Below, in pieces: positions 13,158 to 62,635 of a stretch of DNA of 64,000 bases. Source of the stretch: Candidatus Bathyarchaeia archaeon (GTDB lineage: Archaea; Thermoproteota; Bathyarchaeia; 40CM-2-53-6). The notes under the pieces were generated by a model that was not told the origin of the DNA, made no database searches, and saw only the letters and a program-made list of their open reading frames with translations. The position numbers and the translations under genes were made by a program. How positions within the stretch are numbered: position 1 is the stretch's first letter; each line of letters begins with the position of its first letter. The stretch spans positions 15,618 to 79,617 of the forward strand of contig DASYWW010000012.1 in NCBI GenBank assembly GCA_035935655.1, given 5' to 3'.

Positions 13158-14117
13158 TTGGTTGAAGAAGTAGGCCAGACGCTAGAGCGGGGAGCAGAGA
13201 GCAGTTCGCGAAGGATACGATTGTGTCCGGAGTGTGGTGGTTCACGGCTGATGCGTGACTATGACGCTGCGGAGGTTGTCTGTATGGCCTGCGGATATGT
13301 TGTGCAAGAAAAGATTGCTGATACACGGCCTGAGTGGCGCGCGTTTGACGACGAACAGCGAGCGAAGAGAGCGCGCACTGGTGCGCCGATGACGTATACT
13401 ATTCATGATAAGGGCCTCTCGACAATTATCGACTGGCGTGATCGTCCATCGGGGACGAAGGGCGTCTCGGCCGATCAAAGGATTGAGTTGTACAAGCTGC
13501 GGAAGTGGCAGCGACGTGTCCGCGTGTCGGACGCGACGGAGCGGAACCTGGCTGTTGCGTTGTCGGAGCTGAGCAAGTTGTCCTCGGCCCTTTCCTTACC
13601 GAAGAATATTCTCGAGACAGCGTCTGTCATTTATCGTCGCGCTATCAAGAGGCGTTTGATCCGTGGTCGATCGATTCACAACGTGACCGCGGCGGCGATC
13701 TACATGTCGTGTCGTCAGTGTGGTGTTCCTCGGACTCTGGATGAGATTGCTAGCGTGTCGACGCTGAACAAGAAGGACATCGGTCGGAGCTACCGGTTCA
13801 TGCTGCGGGAGCTCGGGATGTTTGTTCCTCCGTCTGCGAACAGGAATTATGCGGCTCGGTTTTCGAACAAGCTGACTATCTCGGGGAAGGCGGAGGGTAT
13901 TGCTATTCGGATTTTGGAGATTGCACGGCAGATGAAGCTGACGAGTGGGCGTGGTCCGGCGGGTATTGCGGCGGCGTCTACGTATATTGCGACGGTGTTG
14001 ACGAATGAGCGTAAGACGCAGCGGGAGATTGCGGAGATTGCGAACGTGACAGAGGTTACGATCCGGAACCGGTACAAGGAGCTTCTTGAGAAGCTCATGA
14101 TAGAAGTCCCGATTTAG
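13158..14117 (+). CDS. tfb: Transcription initiation factor IIB (TFB)
   Basis: N-terminal Zn ribbon CPECGGSRLMRDYDAAEVVCMACGYV, then GPEWRAFDDE and two cyclin-fold repeats (ISRLxxxL, VLTNERKTQREIAEIANVTEVTIRNRYKEL). TTG start at 13158. Confidence 0.9.
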   Translation: MVEEVGQTLERGAESSSRRIRLCPECGGSRLMRDYDAAEVVCMACGYVVQEKIADTRPEWRAFDDEQRAKRARTGAPMTYTIHDKGLSTIIDWRDRPSGTKGVSADQRIELYKLRKWQRRVRVSDATERNLAVALSELSKLSSALSLPKNILETASVIYRRAIKRRLIRGRSIHNVTAAAIYMSCRQCGVPRTLDEIASVSTLNKKDIGRSYRFMLRELGMFVPPSANRNYAARFSNKLTISGKAEGIAIRILEIARQMKLTSGRGPAGIAAASTYIATVLTNERKTQREIAEIANVTEVTIRNRYKELLEKLMIEVPI

Positions 14118-20356: not shown

Positions 20357-20479
20357 GCGGCCGTGGTCCAGAGTCAGCGCTCAACTGCGAGGTTGACGGG
20401 CAGCCTGGTCTATGACACCGGCTTCCCATTACCATGGAAAGAGCCGGGAACCCGGGTTCGAATCCCGGCGGCCGCACCA
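20357..20479 (+). tRNA. tRNA-Gly(CCC) requiring two introns: about 33 nt in the D-arm (non-canonical position) and 13 nt after position 37; CCA encoded
   Basis: Acceptor GCGGCCG/CGGCCGC. T-arm CCGGG-TTCGAAT-CCCGG. Discriminator A then CCA (20476-20479). Anticodon arm CCGGC-TTCCCA[ttaccatggaaag]A-GCCGG. A D-arm GTCA-GCCTGGTCTA-TGAC is obtained only if 20369-20401 is removed. The spliced product is 77 nt. Confidence 0.55.
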
Positions 20480-52119: not shown

Positions 52120-53151
52120 TTAGGTCTGAAGGGGACCGATAGACTCCTTGAGACGATTCAGACAAGCGATCAGGACATCTTCCACAGTTCCCGGAGCTGT
52201 TAGTCCAGCGGCAGTAGGATGACCGCCACCAACTCCCCCCAACAGCTTCCCCAAAGGAATAGCCACATCTCTCGCCAGGTGCGCGCCTGTCTTCTCGTAG
52301 AAGTCTTCTGTCGCTCGCATGTTGACCCGTACCTTCTCCTTTACTTCACCCGCAACAAACGCCACGTGGGCTCCCAGTGTCAGAAAGGCTCGTGCCGCTG
52401 AAGACTGGTACGAGCCAAGCTGAGACGTAACTACGATCCAATTCCCCAGCATACTGACACCGGACCGTTCTGCGGCTCTCAATCGGGCAACCCTCTCTGA
52501 CCGGTTCATCGGCGAACTCAGCATCCCGGAGAGACGTCGCGGATCGGCTCCAGCTTTGACTAGCTTAGCCGCGACTTCAAAAGTGGACTCTCTAGCAAGC
52601 AGGAAGTGTTTTGTTTCCACAAAAAGCGCCGCCATCAAGGCAGTTGCCTCCACCTTCTCCAGTTGCTCTTTAGACGCCTCGAACAAATGGAAGACAACCT
52701 CAGCGGCTGCAGCGGCCGACTCGTCCACGATCATTTGACGCGCCAGTTTCACAGTGTCAGGATGCGGGTGATGATGATCAACCACAACTACTCCATGTTC
52801 CATTTTCAGTAGACTGCCGGACACGGCTCCAAGTTGATCTAAAGCATTCGTGTCGACAAGGATCGCTAGATCGGCATCAGACGGAATCTTCTGATCCGGC
52901 GTCGAAATGCCCAGGTTTTCCATCAACTGCCTAGTCGGAGCACTAATCCCTTCAGGACACGCGATTGTAGTCTTGGTTCCAGGCGCAAGCCTGTGCAGAA
53001 GAGCCTGGAGAGCGAAGGCCGAGCAGACTGCGTCCGGGTCGGCGTTTTGATGGCATAGGAGAACGACGTGTTCTGATGTGCGAGCAGAGGTTGAGAGTGA
53101 GCGGAGAAGTCCTTTCCAAGTCGTCTTGGTTTTACTTGGACTCGTCGACAC
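52120..53151 (-). CDS. DHH-family phosphoesterase (DHH + DHHA1; NrnA-like)
   Basis: VVLLCHQNADPDAV (motif I), ILVDTN, VVVDHHH (DHH), C-terminal GGGHPTAAG (DHHA1). Confidence 0.8.
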   Translation of the reverse strand: MSTSPSKTKTTWKGLLRSLSTSARTSEHVVLLCHQNADPDAVCSAFALQALLHRLAPGTKTTIACPEGISAPTRQLMENLGISTPDQKIPSDADLAILVDTNALDQLGAVSGSLLKMEHGVVVVDHHHPHPDTVKLARQMIVDESAAAAAEVVFHLFEASKEQLEKVEATALMAALFVETKHFLLARESTFEVAAKLVKAGADPRRLSGMLSSPMNRSERVARLRAAERSGVSMLGNWIVVTSQLGSYQSSAARAFLTLGAHVAFVAGEVKEKVRVNMRATEDFYEKTGAHLARDVAIPLGKLLGGVGGGHPTAAGLTAPGTVEDVLIACLNRLKESIGPLQT

Positions 53152-53161
53152 GGGCCGGCTT

Positions 53162-53530
53162 TCAGCTGGCCGCAGGGCTTGCAGGTCGGAGCTTCTCCTG
53201 GAGCTTGGTCTGAAGCTCTTTCATCCTCTCTTTGGTCCGCTCTTCCTGTCTACCCAAGACGGTGATCCTCGTTCCGAGCAATTCCTTTCTCTCCTTCAAT
53301 TCCGAAAGAACCGTCTGCCTGTCAGACTTCAACAAGAGGCTGCCCACGCTCTTGTAAACAGGAGTTTGATCGGTGATCTTCTCGAGCTCAGCGAGCGCCC
53401 TATCTGTCTCGGACAGCTCAATCTCTAGCTGCTGTTTCTGTGATGTTACTGCCTGTAAGGTCTGTTGTAGTTGTTGCAATCGGGCGAGCTGTTCTTGCAG
53501 CTGTGGTGGGAGCTCAACTTCTTCGCTCAA
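53162..53530 (-). CDS. pfdB: Prefoldin beta subunit
   Basis: All-coiled-coil 122 aa; QLQEQLARLQQLQQTLQAV...VYKSVGSLLLKSDRQTVLSEL pattern of PfdB; position in the exosome superoperon. Confidence 0.75.
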   Translation of the reverse strand: MSEEVELPPQLQEQLARLQQLQQTLQAVTSQKQQLEIELSETDRALAELEKITDQTPVYKSVGSLLLKSDRQTVLSELKERKELLGTRITVLGRQEERTKERMKELQTKLQEKLRPASPAAS

Positions 53531-53538
53531 GTTTTCTA

Positions 53539-53820
53539 CGCGCCGCTTGAAGGGGGAACTCGTCGCGTCCTATAAAAGGGTGCAACAACTTCGATCGCCC
53601 TCAGGCCAGCGGCGACGAATCGAAGGAAAGAATTCGACGCGGCTCGCAATGCTACGAGATCTTGAGCCTGAATGCGCAACGTGAGAACACTGCCACGAGC
53701 ATCTAGTTGCGTCGAGGATCGGTAACCTGGAGTTTGTTTGGCTTCAGGTGCGACTGAAGATAATATTGTGTTGGCGATCTTCGGCGAGTCGAATGTAATG
53801 GATATCGTGATTTCTGATTC
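53539..53820 (-). CDS. Pcc1-like (KEOPS subunit) reading frame lacking any ATG/GTG/TTG start
   Basis: Hand translation: EITISITFDSPKIANTILSSVAPEAKQTPGYRSSTQLDARGSVLTLRIQAQDLVALRAASNSFLRFVAAGLRAIEVV matches the Pcc1 pattern (...ALRAslNSflRll...). The frame is open from the TAG at 53926-53928 to the TAG at 53536-53538 and overlaps the 3' tail of the L37Ae ORF. Confidence 0.45.
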
Positions 53821-53821
53821 T

Positions 53822-54289
53822 TCATGCGTCGTCGGTTGGCTGGTCGGCTGGTTCGACGACCGCGACTCGGCCGGGCTGGGGGTCTTCGATGGGGCCTTCT
53901 GCAGCTTTCTTTTCGGCCTCAGGAGCTACAACCTTCTTCCTTCTGGTCCTCGTCTTCTTGATCTGGGGCGCCACCGTGACTGCGACTTTGGCGCCTGCGC
54001 GGAGGCTGTCGAGCTCCGTTGAAAGCGTTGATGGACTCATCAGGCCTCTTGTGGCCCTTGCGGCGATCTCGCCAAGCTTGGTCCGGGGCGTGTATGCTCC
54101 TCCCGCGAACTTGTATCCGCATTTTCTGCAGTGCCAGACGCCAACGCTCCATCTCTTGACGGTTCTGAACATGCATCTCGGACACTCGTGCTTTCCTCTA
54201 AGGCCTGTAACTATCTCTACGTACTGTCGTCGTGTGACTGTTCCGTATCGGGCGCTGAAGCCTCCGGCGAGTCCTATCTTCTTTCCCAT
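53822..54289 (-). CDS. rpl37ae: Ribosomal protein L37Ae with a 60-aa Lys/Ala/Pro-rich C-terminal extension
   Basis: RYGTVTRRQYVEIVTGLRGKHECPRCMFRTVKRWSVGVWHCRKCGYKFAGGAYTP zinc-ribbon core (about 92 aa), then ...TVAPQIKKTRTRRKKVVAPEAEKKAAEGPIEDPQPGRVAVVEPADQPTDDA before the TGA at 53822. Confidence 0.8.
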   Translation of the reverse strand: MGKKIGLAGGFSARYGTVTRRQYVEIVTGLRGKHECPRCMFRTVKRWSVGVWHCRKCGYKFAGGAYTPRTKLGEIAARATRGLMSPSTLSTELDSLRAGAKVAVTVAPQIKKTRTRRKKVVAPEAEKKAAEGPIEDPQPGRVAVVEPADQPTDDA

Positions 54290-55107
54290 CAGCCCTTCGC
54301 CGCGGCCAATATCTTTGCCCTGTTTTCAGCAGCCTTCTGAACGGCCAAGTGTACCACTGTTTTCAGTTCTTCTTGTGTGAAGCCTGATAGGCCTCCCTTT
54401 TGCATGGCGCAAATGTTGCCGTTCTTCTCGATCGTGACTGTCAGCCTCGCGTTCATGACCTGCTCCTCCTCAAGCACCGGGTCCACAACGATCGTCTTGC
54501 CAACCTTGGCGAAGGTGACAGCTATAGGATGGTTGTTGAGAGGTAGAGGATGAAGCCCTGGCTTGTAAACGACCTCGTCACCCTTCATTTCCGCCTTCAA
54601 TAGCTTAGCGCTCGCAAGCGCGGCTAGAGCGGCCATGGAGGCTGCGTCAATGAGGTTGCCGTCGTGATCCAGAATGTAAATGTCGACGAAGACAACCTGG
54701 ACTTTCTTGCCCTTCAAGAGGACCAGCGATTTCATGTCGACGGCCTTCGACTCTCTGATTCCCCTGTCGATAACGCGTGCCAGTTCGATCGCCTGCTCGC
54801 TTGGTGGTCCTGACTCGAACAGTGGAGATGCTAGCGGACCTAGCTCGGCATTTACGGTTAGGACTCCCTCATCCGGGGTGTCAGGAAAGGGTGTTCCTGT
54901 TTCTACTTTTACACCGACTAGAACCTTTGATTTTCCGAGGTGTACTTGGGCTGATCCGTTTGCTTTCTCTATCAGACCCACTTGTATGTGCAGCGGCCTG
55001 TAGCTGTCTGCGGTTCTTTCGTCTATCCTCTTTCCGTTTGCCACAAGATCGACGACTGTCTTTTGTTCGAGTTTCGCGACGGGTGGAAGTTGGGGGGTGA
55101 ATGACAC
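54289..55107 (-). CDS. rrp42: Exosome complex subunit Rrp42 (RNase PH-like, non-catalytic)
   Basis: RIDERTADSYRPLHIQVGLIEKANGSAQVHLGKSKVLVGVKVE; PH-domain layout; follows rrp41. Confidence 0.9.
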   Translation of the reverse strand: MSFTPQLPPVAKLEQKTVVDLVANGKRIDERTADSYRPLHIQVGLIEKANGSAQVHLGKSKVLVGVKVETGTPFPDTPDEGVLTVNAELGPLASPLFESGPPSEQAIELARVIDRGIRESKAVDMKSLVLLKGKKVQVVFVDIYILDHDGNLIDAASMAALAALASAKLLKAEMKGDEVVYKPGLHPLPLNNHPIAVTFAKVGKTIVVDPVLEEEQVMNARLTVTIEKNGNICAMQKGGLSGFTQEELKTVVHLAVQKAAENRAKILAAAKG

Positions 55108-55874
55108 TAGGCTACTACCTCGGTTTCTTCTCTCTCCTCAGCAGCTTCCTTGATCACTAGATATTTCTTCTTCAGTGCCTCTTGCTGCATCCCGTGGATT
55201 GTCTTGCACGCATCAAGCGCCATCGTGAGTCCTTTTTCGAACTCGTTGGTTGTGAGGATTCCGTCCATTTGGAGGAGGGTCACTAGGTTTGCGTTGGGAA
55301 CCCATGCGACTGGTAGGTCAGCTTCACCGTACTTGTCTTCCGCATCGGACAGGTCCAGAGCCATGTGTCCCTGAATCTTGCCAACTGCGCACGCCGCGAC
55401 TAGCTCTTTCATCGGTATGCCTGCATCGGCTAATGCCAAGGACGCTGCGGTAATCCCAGCACATCGAGAGCCACCGTCGGACTGGAGGACCTCGATGAAG
55501 ACGTCGATAGTTGTCCTCGGGTAGAGATCGGTAAGAACCACGGACTCAAGTGATTCTCGGATTACCTTGGAGAGTTCCATTTCTCGTCTAGAAGGGGCCG
55601 GATTCTTTCGCTCATCGACGGAGAACGGAGCCATGCGGTATCTGCATCTCAAGACTGCGCGGTCTGGAAGGGCGATGTGTTTCGGGTGAGCTTCTCTAGG
55701 TCCGTATACTCCGACGAGAATCTTGTTTTTCCCCTGTTCGATGTATGCGGATCCGTCGGCTTTGTCCAGTAATCCTACTTCGAGTTTTATCGGTCGTAAC
55801 TGGTCTAGACGACGCCCGTCGATACGGATGCCTTTATCGTCTATCAGTTTTTCAGGCTGTTTGGGTTCTGGCAA
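55107..55874 (-). CDS. rrp41: Exosome complex exonuclease Rrp41 (RNase PH)
   Basis: [46 protein letters not shown]; phosphate-binding GxxR region. Confidence 0.9.
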
Positions 55875-56565
55875 CTTCTCCTACCACGTTTGATTTTGCG
55901 ATCATTTCTCTTATCCTGTCTGTTAGGCCTCTTGTATGGGCTTCACGTTCGACCATGTATATGGCTTCTACTGCGACCCTTTCGTTCTCAGGCGACTTGC
56001 CCCAGACCATAACCACGCCGTTTTGTCCTACGGTTATCTGGCAGCCGGTCTCTCTCTTCAGCATGCTGATCATGGAGCCTTTCCTCCCAATTAGCCGGGG
56101 TATCTTGGCAGCGGATATCTCTACCACTCTGCCTGTGGAGATTTTGCCCAGGCCCGGTCCCTTCACAGTAAGAAGAGGGTCTCTCGTTCTATCGAAGGCC
56201 AAAACTTGAGCCAAGACCATGTCTCCGACGTCGAATGACTCTGATAGATCTCTTCGCCTCGGTCCTCTCGGACCCGGCGTCTCAGAAGCGGGAAGCATTG
56301 CCTCGTACGGGGCGCGGATATCCACTGTCCACCCTGACAGCCCCACGTCGACGATTCTGCCGCCGACTAGATCTCCTACTCGGGGGAAATATCCACCCTT
56401 GAGTGGTACAACAGTGACTCTGTTGCCGTCTACTTCGAAGATTCCTATACACGCAGAATATATCCGGGTTCCTATCTTGAACGAGTTGTCGCCGAGCAAG
56501 TGCTCTCCCTCGGCGAGGAGTTCGCCAGGCGCGACTACTTGTTTTGGCTCTGCTGCGATTACCAT
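55852..56565 (-). CDS. rrp4: Exosome RNA-binding subunit Rrp4 (N-domain + S1 + KH)
   Basis: S1 ([22 protein letters not shown]) and KH ([26 protein letters not shown]) domains. Confidence 0.85.
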
Positions 56566-61624: not shown

Positions 61625-62635
61625 TTACAATTGCAAATCGTCTATCGATTCTTCATTGCCCGAAAGGCCAGTCCAACCGAAATGCCCCTTTAGGAGATCG
61701 GCTGCCTGCTGCGAATCGCCTGCTTCAATAACCGAGATTCTGTACAAAGCCGCCAGTTTCTTGGCTTTCTCCGTTAGCCCAGGAATCGCCACGAGGATTG
61801 TCTGGCTGGGACTCACATCAAACACTTTGGCGTAGAGCGACGCTATTGGTGTCTCTTCAATCTCCCGATCACTTGCAATTACGTCGAGAACAACAAGCTC
61901 AGAGGAGCCTTTCGAGGCAACCGCGTCAAACCTATGGAGGGCCCCAGAACGACCGGCGACCTGACCAGGCATCTCGACCTTATACTGGAAATCCTCGAGC
62001 GTGGCTCCAATAGGCTTCATCACAAGGAAGGTCCGCTTGAATTCATCCTCTGCCTCGGCGCTCATTCGATAACTGTAGACGTTGACGAACCCAGTGTCTT
62101 TGATGGTGAAAATATGTCCACAACTTCTACATCGATGAATTGGACTTGGTAAGTCCGACCTCTTTCCACACTGGGAGCATTGGAACCAAGCACCGAGCTT
62201 TTGATAATCCACCCCAGCTTCTATCAACTCCTTATTGCATTTCGGACAGTAGAGGCCGCCTTCGACTAGAAAGTTGTCTACGCTGTCGATGGTCCCGCAA
62301 GCCGTGTGCTCAAGAAGAGTCTTTCGTTCTATGTCGATAGAGTTGCAATTCGGACAGACGTAATCATTGCTGACATTTGCAGACAAACAACTCGGACAAA
62401 CCAGGATTTTTTCGTGGAATTTGCGCTTGAATATTCCCACATCCCAGAGTTTCTCAACCAGTTGCGTCGCAGCAGTTGTATCACCATCAACAACCTCCTC
62501 GACTTCTGGATATCTTGCCGTTTGGCTGAGATCAAAGCTGGGCACAAGTTCAACAATTTCCCCCTTGACAAATCTACCTAGAAGTAGCTGGACACTTTGA
62601 CCCTGGTATAGGGTAAGCCTGTCCTTGGATGTCAT
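61625..62635 (-). CDS. Four-zinc-ribbon hypothetical protein with C-terminal alpha/beta domain
   Basis: CPSC...CPNC, CPKC...CSQC, CRSC plus additional Cys/His pairs within 120 aa. C-terminal HRFDAVASKGSSELVVLDVIASD...VAIPG segment. Confidence 0.5.
   Translation of the reverse strand: MTSKDRLTLYQGQSVQLLLGRFVKGEIVELVPSFDLSQTARYPEVEEVVDGDTTAATQLVEKLWDVGIFKRKFHEKILVCPSCLSANVSNDYVCPNCNSIDIERKTLLEHTACGTIDSVDNFLVEGGLYCPKCNKELIEAGVDYQKLGAWFQCSQCGKRSDLPSPIHRCRSCGHIFTIKDTGFVNVYSYRMSAEAEDEFKRTFLVMKPIGATLEDFQYKVEMPGQVAGRSGALHRFDAVASKGSSELVVLDVIASDREIEETPIASLYAKVFDVSPSQTILVAIPGLTEKAKKLAALYRISVIEAGDSQQAADLLKGHFGWTGLSGNEESIDDLQL

What the first reader, a model, noticed from the sequence alone, without database searches (positions are those of the whole stretch)
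53539..54289. L37Ae with a 60-aa basic tail overlapping a Pcc1-like frame that has no canonical start; no RpoP gene found
In the exosome superoperon L37Ae is normally about 90 aa and is followed by rpoP and pcc1. Here the L37Ae frame runs on for 60 more residues of Lys/Ala/Pro-rich sequence. A clear Pcc1-domain frame (EITISITFDS...ALRAASNSFLRF...) is open from 53925 to 53539 but contains no ATG/GTG/TTG upstream of the domain, and it overlaps the L37Ae tail over about 100 nt. No CxxC...CxxC RpoP-like ORF is present in 53531-54013. Possible explanations are a single-nucleotide indel in the assembly, a programmed frameshift producing an L37Ae-Pcc1 fusion, or initiation of Pcc1 at a non-canonical codon (CTG at 53922, or ATC/ATA).
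Basis: seen in the sequence. Interest (0 to 1): 0.55.

Follow-up and report, generated by a model that had tools for sequence, protein, structure and literature searches.

The report
Pcc1 gene overlapping extended L37Ae tail
In a clade of soil Bathyarchaeia the ribosomal protein L37Ae has a conserved 70-residue tail, and the small tRNA-modification gene pcc1 starts inside that tail in another reading frame; in this genome the start is probably a rare CTG codon, so gene finders usually miss pcc1.

Summary
The cause is a conserved overlapping-gene arrangement, not an assembly error, and probably not a frameshift.

- **L37Ae (53822-54289, minus strand, 155 aa).** It has a real C-terminal extension that is conserved as protein in more than 200 protein clusters. 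The extension holds a near-invariant motif MSPSTLSTELDSLRAGAKVA, a basic patch and a variable acidic end.
- **Frame relation.** In 105 of 106 related loci the Pcc1 domain lies in the +1 frame directly behind or overlapping the L37Ae 3' end.
- **Sister subgroups.** 29 of 30 unique sequences keep a TTG 23-25 codons upstream of the domain. The L37Ae codon that supplies it is always GTT or ATT, so pcc1 is a separately initiated cistron.
- **The window's 155-aa subgroup.** That TTG is lost, and about half the members, including the window, have no ATG/GTG/TTG. The only invariant candidate is CTG at 53922:
  - it lies 8 nt downstream of an SD-like GAAGGT;
  - a +1-frame stop sits directly upstream of it in most members;
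  - the +1 frame shows stop avoidance from there to the domain.
- **GenBank precedent.** GenBank annotates one orthologue from this same CTG.
- **Frameshifting.** I found no conserved slippery site and no conserved RNA structure.
- **rpoP.** It is absent from the whole window, and also from this position in two outgroup Bathyarchaeia.

Interest is modest: a new variant of known things, plus a systematic annotation gap.

The parts
53822..54289 (-). L37Ae (eL43) CDS, 155 aa, ATG start overlapping the Rrp42 stop by 1 nt
   Evidence: ORF list. Pfam PF01780 over residues 2-82 and NCBIfam NF003058 at 95 bits against a cut-off of 87. More than 200 homologous clusters of 141-166 aa.
54044..54286 (-). 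L37Ae core zinc-ribbon domain (residues 2-82; C36, C39, C54, C57)
   Evidence: Pfam match. All solved eL43 chains, 65-116 aa long, align only to residues 3-85.
53981..54040 (-). Near-invariant tail motif MSPSTLSTELDSLRAGAKVA (residues 84-103), predicted helix
   Evidence: 16 of the 20 positions are invariant in all 23 aligned proteins. Codon-position entropy is 0.07/0.06/0.90, so conservation is at protein level only. AF2 predicts a helix at 86-101 with moderate pLDDT.
53933..53962 (-). Basic patch IKKTRTRRKK (residues 110-119) of the L37Ae tail
   Evidence: Alignment A1: R114, R116 and R117 invariant, K119 nearly invariant.
53825..53932 (-). Variable Ala/Pro/Glu-rich acidic end of the L37Ae tail (residues 120-155); dual-coding with the Pcc1 N-terminal extension from 53922 down
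   Evidence: The entropy periodicity follows the L37 frame (0.57/0.38/0.99). No +1-frame stop occurs in codons 122-155 in 31 unique sequences, and 0 of 82 V/I codons at risk end in A.
53931..53936 (-). SD-like GAAGGT, 8 nt upstream of the CTG
   Evidence: Its form and spacing match Rrp42 (GAGGTA, 8 nt), and other operon genes carry AAGGAG, TAGGAG or GAAGGG. AGA AGG is invariant in 26 of 26 unique sequences.
53926..53928 (-). TAG stop in the Pcc1 frame that closes the frame just upstream of the CTG
   Evidence: A stop lies 1-2 codons upstream of the CTG in 28 of 42 loci of the 155-aa group.
53920..53922 (-). CTG, proposed non-canonical start codon of pcc1
   Evidence: Invariant in 26 of 26 (31 of 31) unique sequences of the subgroup. 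It is supplied by the third position of Pro123 CCT, and only 8 of 129 fourfold sites are invariant in the same sequences. GenBank protein P0121 of locus L017 starts at the homologous CTG.
53536..53922 (-). Proposed pcc1 CDS (128 aa plus stop) with a 34-residue basic N-terminal extension
   Evidence: Translation. Pfam and NCBIfam Pcc1 matches. Best solved-structure match is P. furiosus Pcc1.
53593..53811 (-). Pcc1 domain (Pfam PF09341 positions 2-74)
   Evidence: Codon-position entropy of 0.46/0.26/1.19 shows purifying selection.
53162..53530 (-). Prefoldin beta, TTG start 5 nt after the pcc1 stop
   Evidence: Pfam PF01920 and TIGR02338. Identical to HEV2118745.1.

Best explanation
This is a conserved overlapping gene pair in a soil Bathyarchaeia clade.

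L37Ae (eL43) carries a real lineage-specific C-terminal extension: a helical invariant motif, a basic patch and an acidic end. pcc1 is a separate cistron whose translation starts inside the acidic end of the L37Ae gene, in the +1 frame. That gives Pcc1 a basic N-terminal extension.

Most subgroups start pcc1 at a conserved TTG. In the window's 155-aa subgroup that TTG has been lost. Translation most likely starts at the invariant CTG at 53922-53920, which lies 8 nt downstream of an SD-like GAAGGT, and probably at low efficiency. That would suit a low-abundance KEOPS subunit encoded behind a ribosomal protein gene.

- **Shown:** the conserved arrangement; the selected TTG in sister groups; the invariant CTG; avoidance of +1-frame stops.
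- **Inferred:** that the CTG is really used, and how efficiently.
For: - **Frame relation.** 105 of 106 loci with the tail motif have Pcc1 in the +1 frame. Spacers are 1, 4, 7, 10, 13, 16 or 19 nt, or a 26-nt overlap.
- **Sister groups.** 29 of 30 unique sequences have TTG at -23 to -25. The L37Ae codon that supplies it is always GTT or ATT. Frame stops occur at -27 to -34 but never downstream of the TTG.
- **Window subgroup, start codon.** CTG at -34 is invariant in 26 of 26 unique sequences, while other xTG codons toggle through synonymous L37Ae changes. Its T is a fourfold site of Pro123, and only 6% of fourfold sites are invariant in these sequences.
- **Stop avoidance.**
  - +1-frame stops are common just upstream (codons 120-121) and in the L37Ae core, where ATA and GTA are used.
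  - They are absent from codons 122-155.
  - None of 82 at-risk Val/Ile codons ends in A, against a background of 39% ATA and 17% GTA.
  - Only 35% of synonymous resamples keep the frame open.
- **SD-like sequence.** GAAGGT has the same spacing as the Rrp42 SD.
- **Local RNA structure.** The overlap region is unstructured.
- **GenBank.** The L017 orthologue is annotated from the same CTG.
- **Precedent in archaea.** In Haloferax ribosome profiling, about 30% of putative alternative initiation sites used near-cognate codons, and some were internal and out of frame (PMC7261190).
Against: - CTG is not an accepted efficient start codon in archaea, and there is no direct expression evidence here.
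- The invariance of CCT has p of about 0.06 on its own. It is also entangled with conservation of the L37Ae peptide PEAEKK and with codon bias.
- The entropy pattern in the overlap follows the L37Ae frame. The Pcc1 extension therefore shows no protein-level constraint beyond staying open.
- About half the subgroup also carries other canonical codons (TTG -23, TTG -15, ATG -13, ATG -3), so the start may differ between members.
- The sister-group TTG has no obvious SD at the right distance.
Confidence: 0.55

Rival explanations
1. Programmed +1 ribosomal frameshifting. A fraction of ribosomes translating L37Ae shift +1 within the acidic tail or at the stop codon, producing an eL43-linker-Pcc1 fusion at a fixed ratio.
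For: - The Pcc1 frame is +1 to L37Ae in 105 of 106 loci.
- The window and about half of its subgroup have no canonical start.
- In that subgroup the L37Ae stop lies 1 nt from the domain start.
- The +1 frame is kept open upstream.
Against: - There is no conserved shift site. At least 13 different last sense codons occur before the stop (GCA, GCC, GCG, GCT, CCC, TCA, GAA, GAC, GAG, GAT, ATC, AAC, AAT), and none re-pairs in +1.
- AAA-G is not conserved in sister groups, whereas the TTG is.
- There is no conserved or stable RNA structure: alifold -2.1 kcal/mol, window z=+1.5.
- Eight loci place the L37Ae stop 26 nt inside the domain and have upstream ATG/TTG starts.
- The frame relation is preserved automatically once both frames are coding.
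Confidence: 0.1
2. Initiation close to the domain. This would be either at a near-cognate codon (ATC 53811, ACG 53808, ATA 53805) or by termination-reinitiation of ribosomes finishing L37Ae at TGA 53824-53822, giving a Pcc1 of canonical length.
For: - Canonical Pcc1 proteins have only about 8 residues before strand 1.
- In the 155-aa group the L37Ae stop is 1 nt from the first conserved Pcc1 codons.
- Operon genes are tightly coupled.
- A few relatives carry ATG at -3 (L013, P0129).
Against: - The codon at the first Ile/Leu position varies (ATC, ATT, CTT, CTC, CTA, ATA), so no near-cognate codon is conserved.
- The Pcc1-frame codons GA[A/T] TCN directly after the stop already show coding-type variation, which leaves no room for a start.
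- Stop avoidance upstream of the L37Ae stop would be unexplained.
- Sister groups use a TTG 24 codons upstream.
Confidence: 0.2
3. Assembly indel or decaying pseudogene. On this reading pcc1 is broken in this genome, or a base is missing after the ATG at 53825.
For: The ATG at 53825 forms an ATGA overlap with the L37Ae stop. Inserting one base after it would put it in frame with Pcc1.
Against: - That ATG is ATA or another codon in relatives that have the same frame structure.
- An independent assembly is identical.
- More than 100 loci share the arrangement.
- The Pcc1 domain shows strong purifying selection.
Confidence: 0.03

Closest known systems
Archaeal/eukaryotic ribosomal protein eL43 (L37Ae)
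   Same: - C4 zinc-ribbon core.
- Matches to Pfam PF01780 and NCBIfam NF003058.
- Position after Rrp4-Rrp41-Rrp42 in the exosome superoperon.
   Different: It is 155 aa long, against 65-116 aa in every solved structure. The extra roughly 70 residues carry a clade-invariant helical motif, a basic patch and an acidic end. They have no Pfam match.
KEOPS subunit Pcc1 (e.g. Pyrococcus furiosus PF2011, PDB 3ENC/3ENO)
   Same: The domain aligns end to end (PF09341 positions 2-74). The best solved-structure hits are Pcc1 chains. It lies next to prefoldin beta, as in other archaea.
   Different: - The window has no canonical start codon.
- The gene overlaps the preceding ribosomal protein gene by about 100 nt.
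- It is predicted to carry a 24-34 residue basic N-terminal extension.
Overlapping, translationally linked gene pairs in prokaryotic operons and rare non-AUG/GUG/UUG starts (e.g. bacterial infC AUU; near-cognate initiation sites in Haloferax ribosome profiling, PMC7261190)
   Same: An out-of-frame overlap within an operon, an SD-like element inside the upstream gene, and a weak start codon on a low-abundance product.
   Different: The overlap is long (59-101 nt), not the usual 1-4 nt. The start codon differs between sister lineages (TTG, ATG, CTG). The infC comparison rests on my own knowledge, not on a tool result.
Stop-codon-dependent +1 programmed frameshifts (bacterial prfB, eukaryotic antizyme)
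   Same: The downstream domain lies in the +1 frame directly after an in-frame stop codon in the window's subgroup.
   Different: There is no conserved shifty codon, no internal SD at the required spacing to the stop, and no stimulatory structure. Relatives have a conserved independent start. The description of the prfB and antizyme mechanisms is from my own knowledge.

Membership tests
eL43 / L37Ae ribosomal protein | Sequence match to the family profile above the curated cut-off | tested here: met
   PF01780 scores 87.6 bits (cut-off 21.9). NF003058 scores 95.3 bits (cut-off 87). TIGR00280 scores 84.8 bits, below its cut-off of 95.8.
eL43 / L37Ae ribosomal protein | C4 zinc ribbon (CxxC...CxxC) | tested here: met
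   C36-P-R-C39 ... C54-R-K-C57. C36, C39, C54 and C57 are invariant in A1.
eL43 / L37Ae ribosomal protein | Small single-domain protein of about 70-115 aa | tested here: not met
   It is 155 aa. The solved chains are 65-116 aa and cover only residues 3-85.
KEOPS Pcc1 | Pcc1 domain profile match above cut-off | tested here: met
   PF09341 scores 61.9 bits (cut-off 20.9). NF011470 scores 53.2 bits (cut-off 27). The narrower NF040853 scores 40.6 bits, below its cut-off of 140.
KEOPS Pcc1 | Pcc1 rather than paralog Pcc2 | tested here: inconclusive
   The best PDB hits are chains named Pcc1 (8up5, 3enc). No explicit comparison with Pcc2 profiles was made.
KEOPS Pcc1 | Partner subunits Kae1, Bud32 and Cgi121 encoded in the genome | not tested
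   Only a 64-kb window is available, and it was not searched for them.
Programmed +1 ribosomal frameshift | Conserved shift-prone site at the frame junction | tested here: not met
   The last sense codon and the stop context vary widely. No motif is common to all subgroups.
Programmed +1 ribosomal frameshift | Downstream ORF lacks its own initiation signal across the clade | tested here: not met
   TTG is conserved and under selection in 29 of 30 sister sequences. ATG is present in others.
Programmed +1 ribosomal frameshift | Fusion protein detected | not testable with these tools
   This needs proteomics or Ribo-seq of uncultured Bathyarchaeia.
Archaeal exosome superoperon | Gene order Rrp4-Rrp41-Rrp42-L37Ae-(RpoP)-(Brix)-Pcc1-prefoldin beta | tested here: inconclusive
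   SBDS, Rrp4, Rrp41, Rrp42, L37Ae, Pcc1, PfdB and DHH are present in order. RpoP and Brix are absent between L37Ae and Pcc1. Outgroup L030 keeps a 186-aa ORF (Brix-like by position only, not domain-scanned) and has no RpoP.

The most novel reading that the evidence does not exclude
Ribosomes translating eL43 shift +1 in the acidic tail at a low, fixed rate and make an eL43-Pcc1 fusion. This would tether a KEOPS subunit to the large ribosomal subunit, or couple its dosage to ribosome synthesis. It would be the first ribosomal-protein/tRNA-modification fusion made by recoding in Archaea.
Probability: 0.08. Interest if true: 0.75.

Novelty: new variant of a known kind. Interest (0 to 1): 0.35.

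Why it matters
1. **An annotation gap.** pcc1 is systematically missed. The Pcc1 search found only 38 protein clusters, against more than 217 for the adjacent L37Ae. None of the eight loci first inspected had pcc1 called. Comparative studies could therefore wrongly score KEOPS/Pcc1 as absent in soil Bathyarchaeia. Gene finders also over-extend prefoldin beta across the gap.
2. **A natural series of start-codon changes.** Within one clade the same overlapping gene uses TTG, then ATG or CTG. That makes it a useful test case for non-canonical initiation in uncultured archaea.
3. **An unexplained ribosomal feature.** The eL43 extension has a 20-residue motif that is more conserved than the protein core. 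It is an undescribed, clade-specific ribosome feature of unknown role.

Tried and rejected
- **One-base deletion after ATG 53825.** It would give MKESEITISITF. Rejected because the ATG is not conserved and the frame layout is shared by all relatives.
- **Frameshift at the stop codon.** Rejected as the main model because the codon that would occupy the P site is not conserved and stop avoidance extends upstream.
- **Nucleotide-level (RNA) function for the invariant tail motif.** Rejected because third codon positions vary freely.
- **Exceptional synonymous conservation around codons 118-128.** Sliding windows elsewhere in L37Ae are equally low, so this is not significant on its own.
- **Conserved RNA structure in the overlap.** None found.
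- **Apparent Pcc1-prefoldin fusion (219 codons) in L019-L021.** This was an artefact of my masking stops as X. It was not reproduced.
- **Literature.** Searches for an L37Ae extension in Bathyarchaeota, or for the superoperon context of Pcc1, found nothing relevant.
- **Exact look-up.** The window's L37Ae and the CTG-started Pcc1 are not in the protein collection.

Full report
**What is in the window**

On the minus strand the genes run in this order:

| Gene | Coordinates |
|---|---|
| Rrp4 | 55852-56565 |
| Rrp41 | 55107-55874 |
| Rrp42 | 54289-55107 |
| L37Ae | 53822-54289 |
| Pcc1-domain frame | open from 53925 to the stop at 53538-53536 |
| prefoldin beta | 53162-53530 |
| DHH/DHHA1 protein | 52120-53151 |

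- L37Ae is 155 aa, but the family profile covers only residues 2-82.
- The Pcc1 profile matches nt 53811-53593 (E=8e-17).
- The Pcc1 frame is +1 relative to L37Ae. It is closed by a TAG at 53928-53926 and contains no ATG, GTG or TTG before the domain.
- The ATG at 53825, which overlaps the L37Ae TGA, lies in the third frame.
- No RpoP-like small zinc-ribbon ORF exists anywhere in the window.

**It is not an artefact**

- A separately assembled contig (L140, Logan SRR12347814) is identical to the window over 3.5 kb, including the junction.
- The layout recurs in relatives. I collected 51 loci from GTDB species genomes and 80 from metagenomes, plus 8 through exact-protein look-ups.
- Of 106 loci whose L37Ae carries the tail motif and for which both the L37Ae stop and a Pcc1 domain could be located, 105 have the Pcc1 domain in the +1 frame. 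The domain starts 1, 4, 7, 10, 13, 16 or 19 nt after the L37Ae stop, or overlaps it by 26 nt.
- The single exception, L136, looks like a local indel.
- Outgroup Bathyarchaeia and Asgard loci have pcc1 with an ordinary ATG, in any frame, 17-970 nt downstream.
- The window ATG at 53825 is ATA or another codon in relatives. The idea of one missing base after that ATG therefore fails.

**The L37Ae tail is a real protein extension**

- More than 200 protein clusters of 141-166 aa share it.
- In an alignment of 23 diverse members, the segment MSPSTLSTELDSLRAGAKVA is almost invariant and is better conserved than the zinc-ribbon core. A K/R patch and a variable acidic end follow it.
- Among 13 gap-free loci, the codon-position entropy in the motif is 0.07/0.06/0.90. 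Selection therefore acts on the peptide, not on the RNA.
- Every solved eL43 chain is 65-116 aa and aligns only to residues 3-85.
- AlphaFold2 predicts a helix at 86-101 with moderate confidence and disorder beyond it. Mean pLDDT is 56, so this is weak evidence.
- Other Bathyarchaeia have different tails, basic or purely acidic. Tails are therefore a class-wide theme, and this motif marks one clade.

**How pcc1 is expressed in sister subgroups**

- In the subgroups with 141-150-aa L37Ae and spacers of 7-19 nt, 29 of 30 unique sequences carry TTG 23-25 codons upstream of the domain in the Pcc1 frame.
- The L37Ae codon that provides the two T's is always GTT (25 sequences) or ATT (4 sequences), never a synonymous alternative.
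- Frame stops occur at -27 to -34 in nine sequences and never downstream of the TTG.
- This is the signature of a selected start codon. pcc1 is therefore an independent cistron that begins inside the L37Ae tail, overlaps it by about 60 nt, and encodes a basic N-terminal extension. Acidic GAA/GAG/AAG codons read in +1 become AAG/AGA/AGG.
- Eight loci have the L37Ae stop 26 nt inside the Pcc1 domain together with upstream ATG/TTG codons. That is incompatible with a shift at the stop codon.

**The window's own subgroup (155-aa L37Ae, spacer 1 nt; 26-31 unique sequences)**

- The codon homologous to the sister TTG is CTG or CCG, toggling through synonymous GCT/GCC changes.
- Other canonical codons are sporadic: TTG -23 in 9 of 26, TTG -15 in 7 of 26, ATG -13 in 7 of 26 and ATG -3 in 1 of 26.
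- About half the members, including the window, have none.
- The one invariant candidate is CTG at -34, which is 53922-53920 in the window. Its T is the third position of Pro123 (CCT in 31 of 31 unique sequences).
- Only 8 of 129 fourfold-degenerate sites with a fixed amino acid are invariant in the same sequences, which is 6%.
- A Pcc1-frame stop sits one or two codons upstream of this CTG in 28 of 42 loci.

Stop avoidance in the +1 frame:

- From the CTG to the domain the +1 frame never contains a stop.
- L37Ae uses ATA and GTA freely elsewhere. +1 stops occur at 13 codon columns in residues 1-121.
- In residues 122-155, none of 82 Val/Ile codons followed by A or G ends in A. The background is 39% ATA and 17% GTA.
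- Synonymous resampling keeps the frame open in only 35% of cases.
- The Pcc1 frame therefore appears to be translated from roughly the CTG onward.

Other support for the CTG:

- Eight nucleotides upstream lies GAAGGT. It resembles in form and spacing the Rrp42 signal (GAGGTA, 8 nt) and the AAGGAG, TAGGAG and GAAGGG signals of neighbouring genes.
- GenBank annotates the L017 orthologue (P0121, 128 aa, MRPKRK...) from exactly this CTG.
- In Haloferax volcanii ribosome profiling, about 30% of putative alternative initiation sites used near-cognate codons, and some were internal and out of frame (PMC7261190). Such initiation therefore has precedent in archaea.

**Rival mechanisms**

- **+1 programmed frameshift.** It would explain the constant frame relation, but that relation is preserved automatically once both frames are coding. 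The codon before the stop varies over at least 13 different triplets (GCA, GCC, GCG, GCT, CCC, TCA, GAA, GAC, GAG, GAT, ATC, AAC, AAT). No motif is shared across subgroups. RNAalifold finds no structure (-2.1 kcal/mol), and the window sequence folds less stably than shuffles (z=+1.5). I rate this about 0.1.
- **Initiation or reinitiation next to the domain.** This is disfavoured for three reasons. No near-cognate codon is conserved at the first Ile/Leu position. The codons GA[A/T]-TCN directly after the stop already vary like coding sequence. Upstream stop avoidance would be unexplained. Canonical Pcc1 proteins do have short N-termini, so I keep this at about 0.2.
- **Pseudogene or assembly error.** The Pcc1 domain entropy of 0.46/0.26/1.19 and the many intact copies exclude this.

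**rpoP**

Its absence between L37Ae and pcc1 may not be specific to this genome. The two outgroup Bathyarchaeia examined have either a 186-aa ORF, Brix-like by position only (L030), or nothing (L039) in that position, and no rpoP. Whether rpoP lies elsewhere in this genome could not be tested.

**Comparison with known systems, and verdict**

- The components are ordinary members of eL43 and Pcc1 by profile. eL43 fails the 'small single-domain' criterion, and pcc1 lacks a canonical start.
- The arrangement works like a long out-of-frame operon overlap with a weak start codon. It does not meet the tested criteria for programmed frameshifting.
- I found no literature describing the extension or the overlap.
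- The practical consequence is an annotation gap. The Pcc1 search returned only 38 clusters, against more than 217 for L37Ae. Gene callers skipped pcc1 in all eight loci first inspected and often stretched prefoldin beta to 140 aa across it.
- Overall this is a new variant of known kinds and of modest interest. A small residual chance remains of a recoding event, which would be far more interesting.

Noticed in passing
window 20357-20476 (+): Rfam finds a 120-nt tRNA (40.9 bits), presumably intron-containing, that ARAGORN does not report.
   Followed up: no
proteins P0015 (207 aa) and P0133 (151 aa), source 'src': Two database proteins are in-frame L37Ae-Pcc1 fusions made by internal deletions. 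The joins are at ...PEAEK|IAETIL... and ...TPRTKL|AETIL... These are probably assembly or collapse artefacts at short similar stretches, but they could be real deletion variants.
   Followed up: partly
L001 3202-3624, L005 3205-3627 (and P0160, P0167, P0172): Gene callers often give prefoldin beta a 140-aa form that extends upstream over the 3' end of pcc1. The conserved TTG-started form is 122 aa.
   Followed up: partly
L019 (DASPWZ010000014.1); protein P0163: An archaeal superoperon contig is filed under a 'Candidatus Dormiibacterota bacterium' MAG. An identical-cluster prefoldin is named 'Candidatus Sulfotelmatobacter sp.'. Both are likely mis-binned Bathyarchaeia contigs.
   Followed up: no
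L136 (Ga0209268_1018042): This is the only locus of 106 where the Pcc1 frame is not +1. The L37Ae tail frame is disrupted compared with near-identical loci (L128 type), which suggests a local indel or assembly error.
   Followed up: partly
window 53703-53825 (-): A 40-aa ORF whose ATG forms an ATGA overlap with the L37Ae stop. It is in the third frame, is cut by stops in relatives and its ATG is not conserved, so it is spurious.
   Followed up: yes
window 53926-53931 (-): In the window the Pcc1 frame reads TTG-TAG, a start codon followed at once by a stop, 3 nt upstream of the proposed CTG. In L023/L061 the same TTG is followed by TGG and is used as the annotated start (P0124). This shows how single substitutions move the start in this subgroup.
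   Followed up: partly
window 52120-53151 (-): A DHH/DHHA1 protein lies directly downstream of prefoldin beta and is conserved in that position in relatives. It may be a RecJ/GAN-like (Cdc45-family) protein.
   Followed up: no
window 61625-62635 (-) and 13224-13292 (+): A 336-aa protein with three CxxC...CxxC zinc-ribbon motifs, and a TFB-like N-terminal zinc ribbon. Both were seen while searching for rpoP.
   Followed up: no
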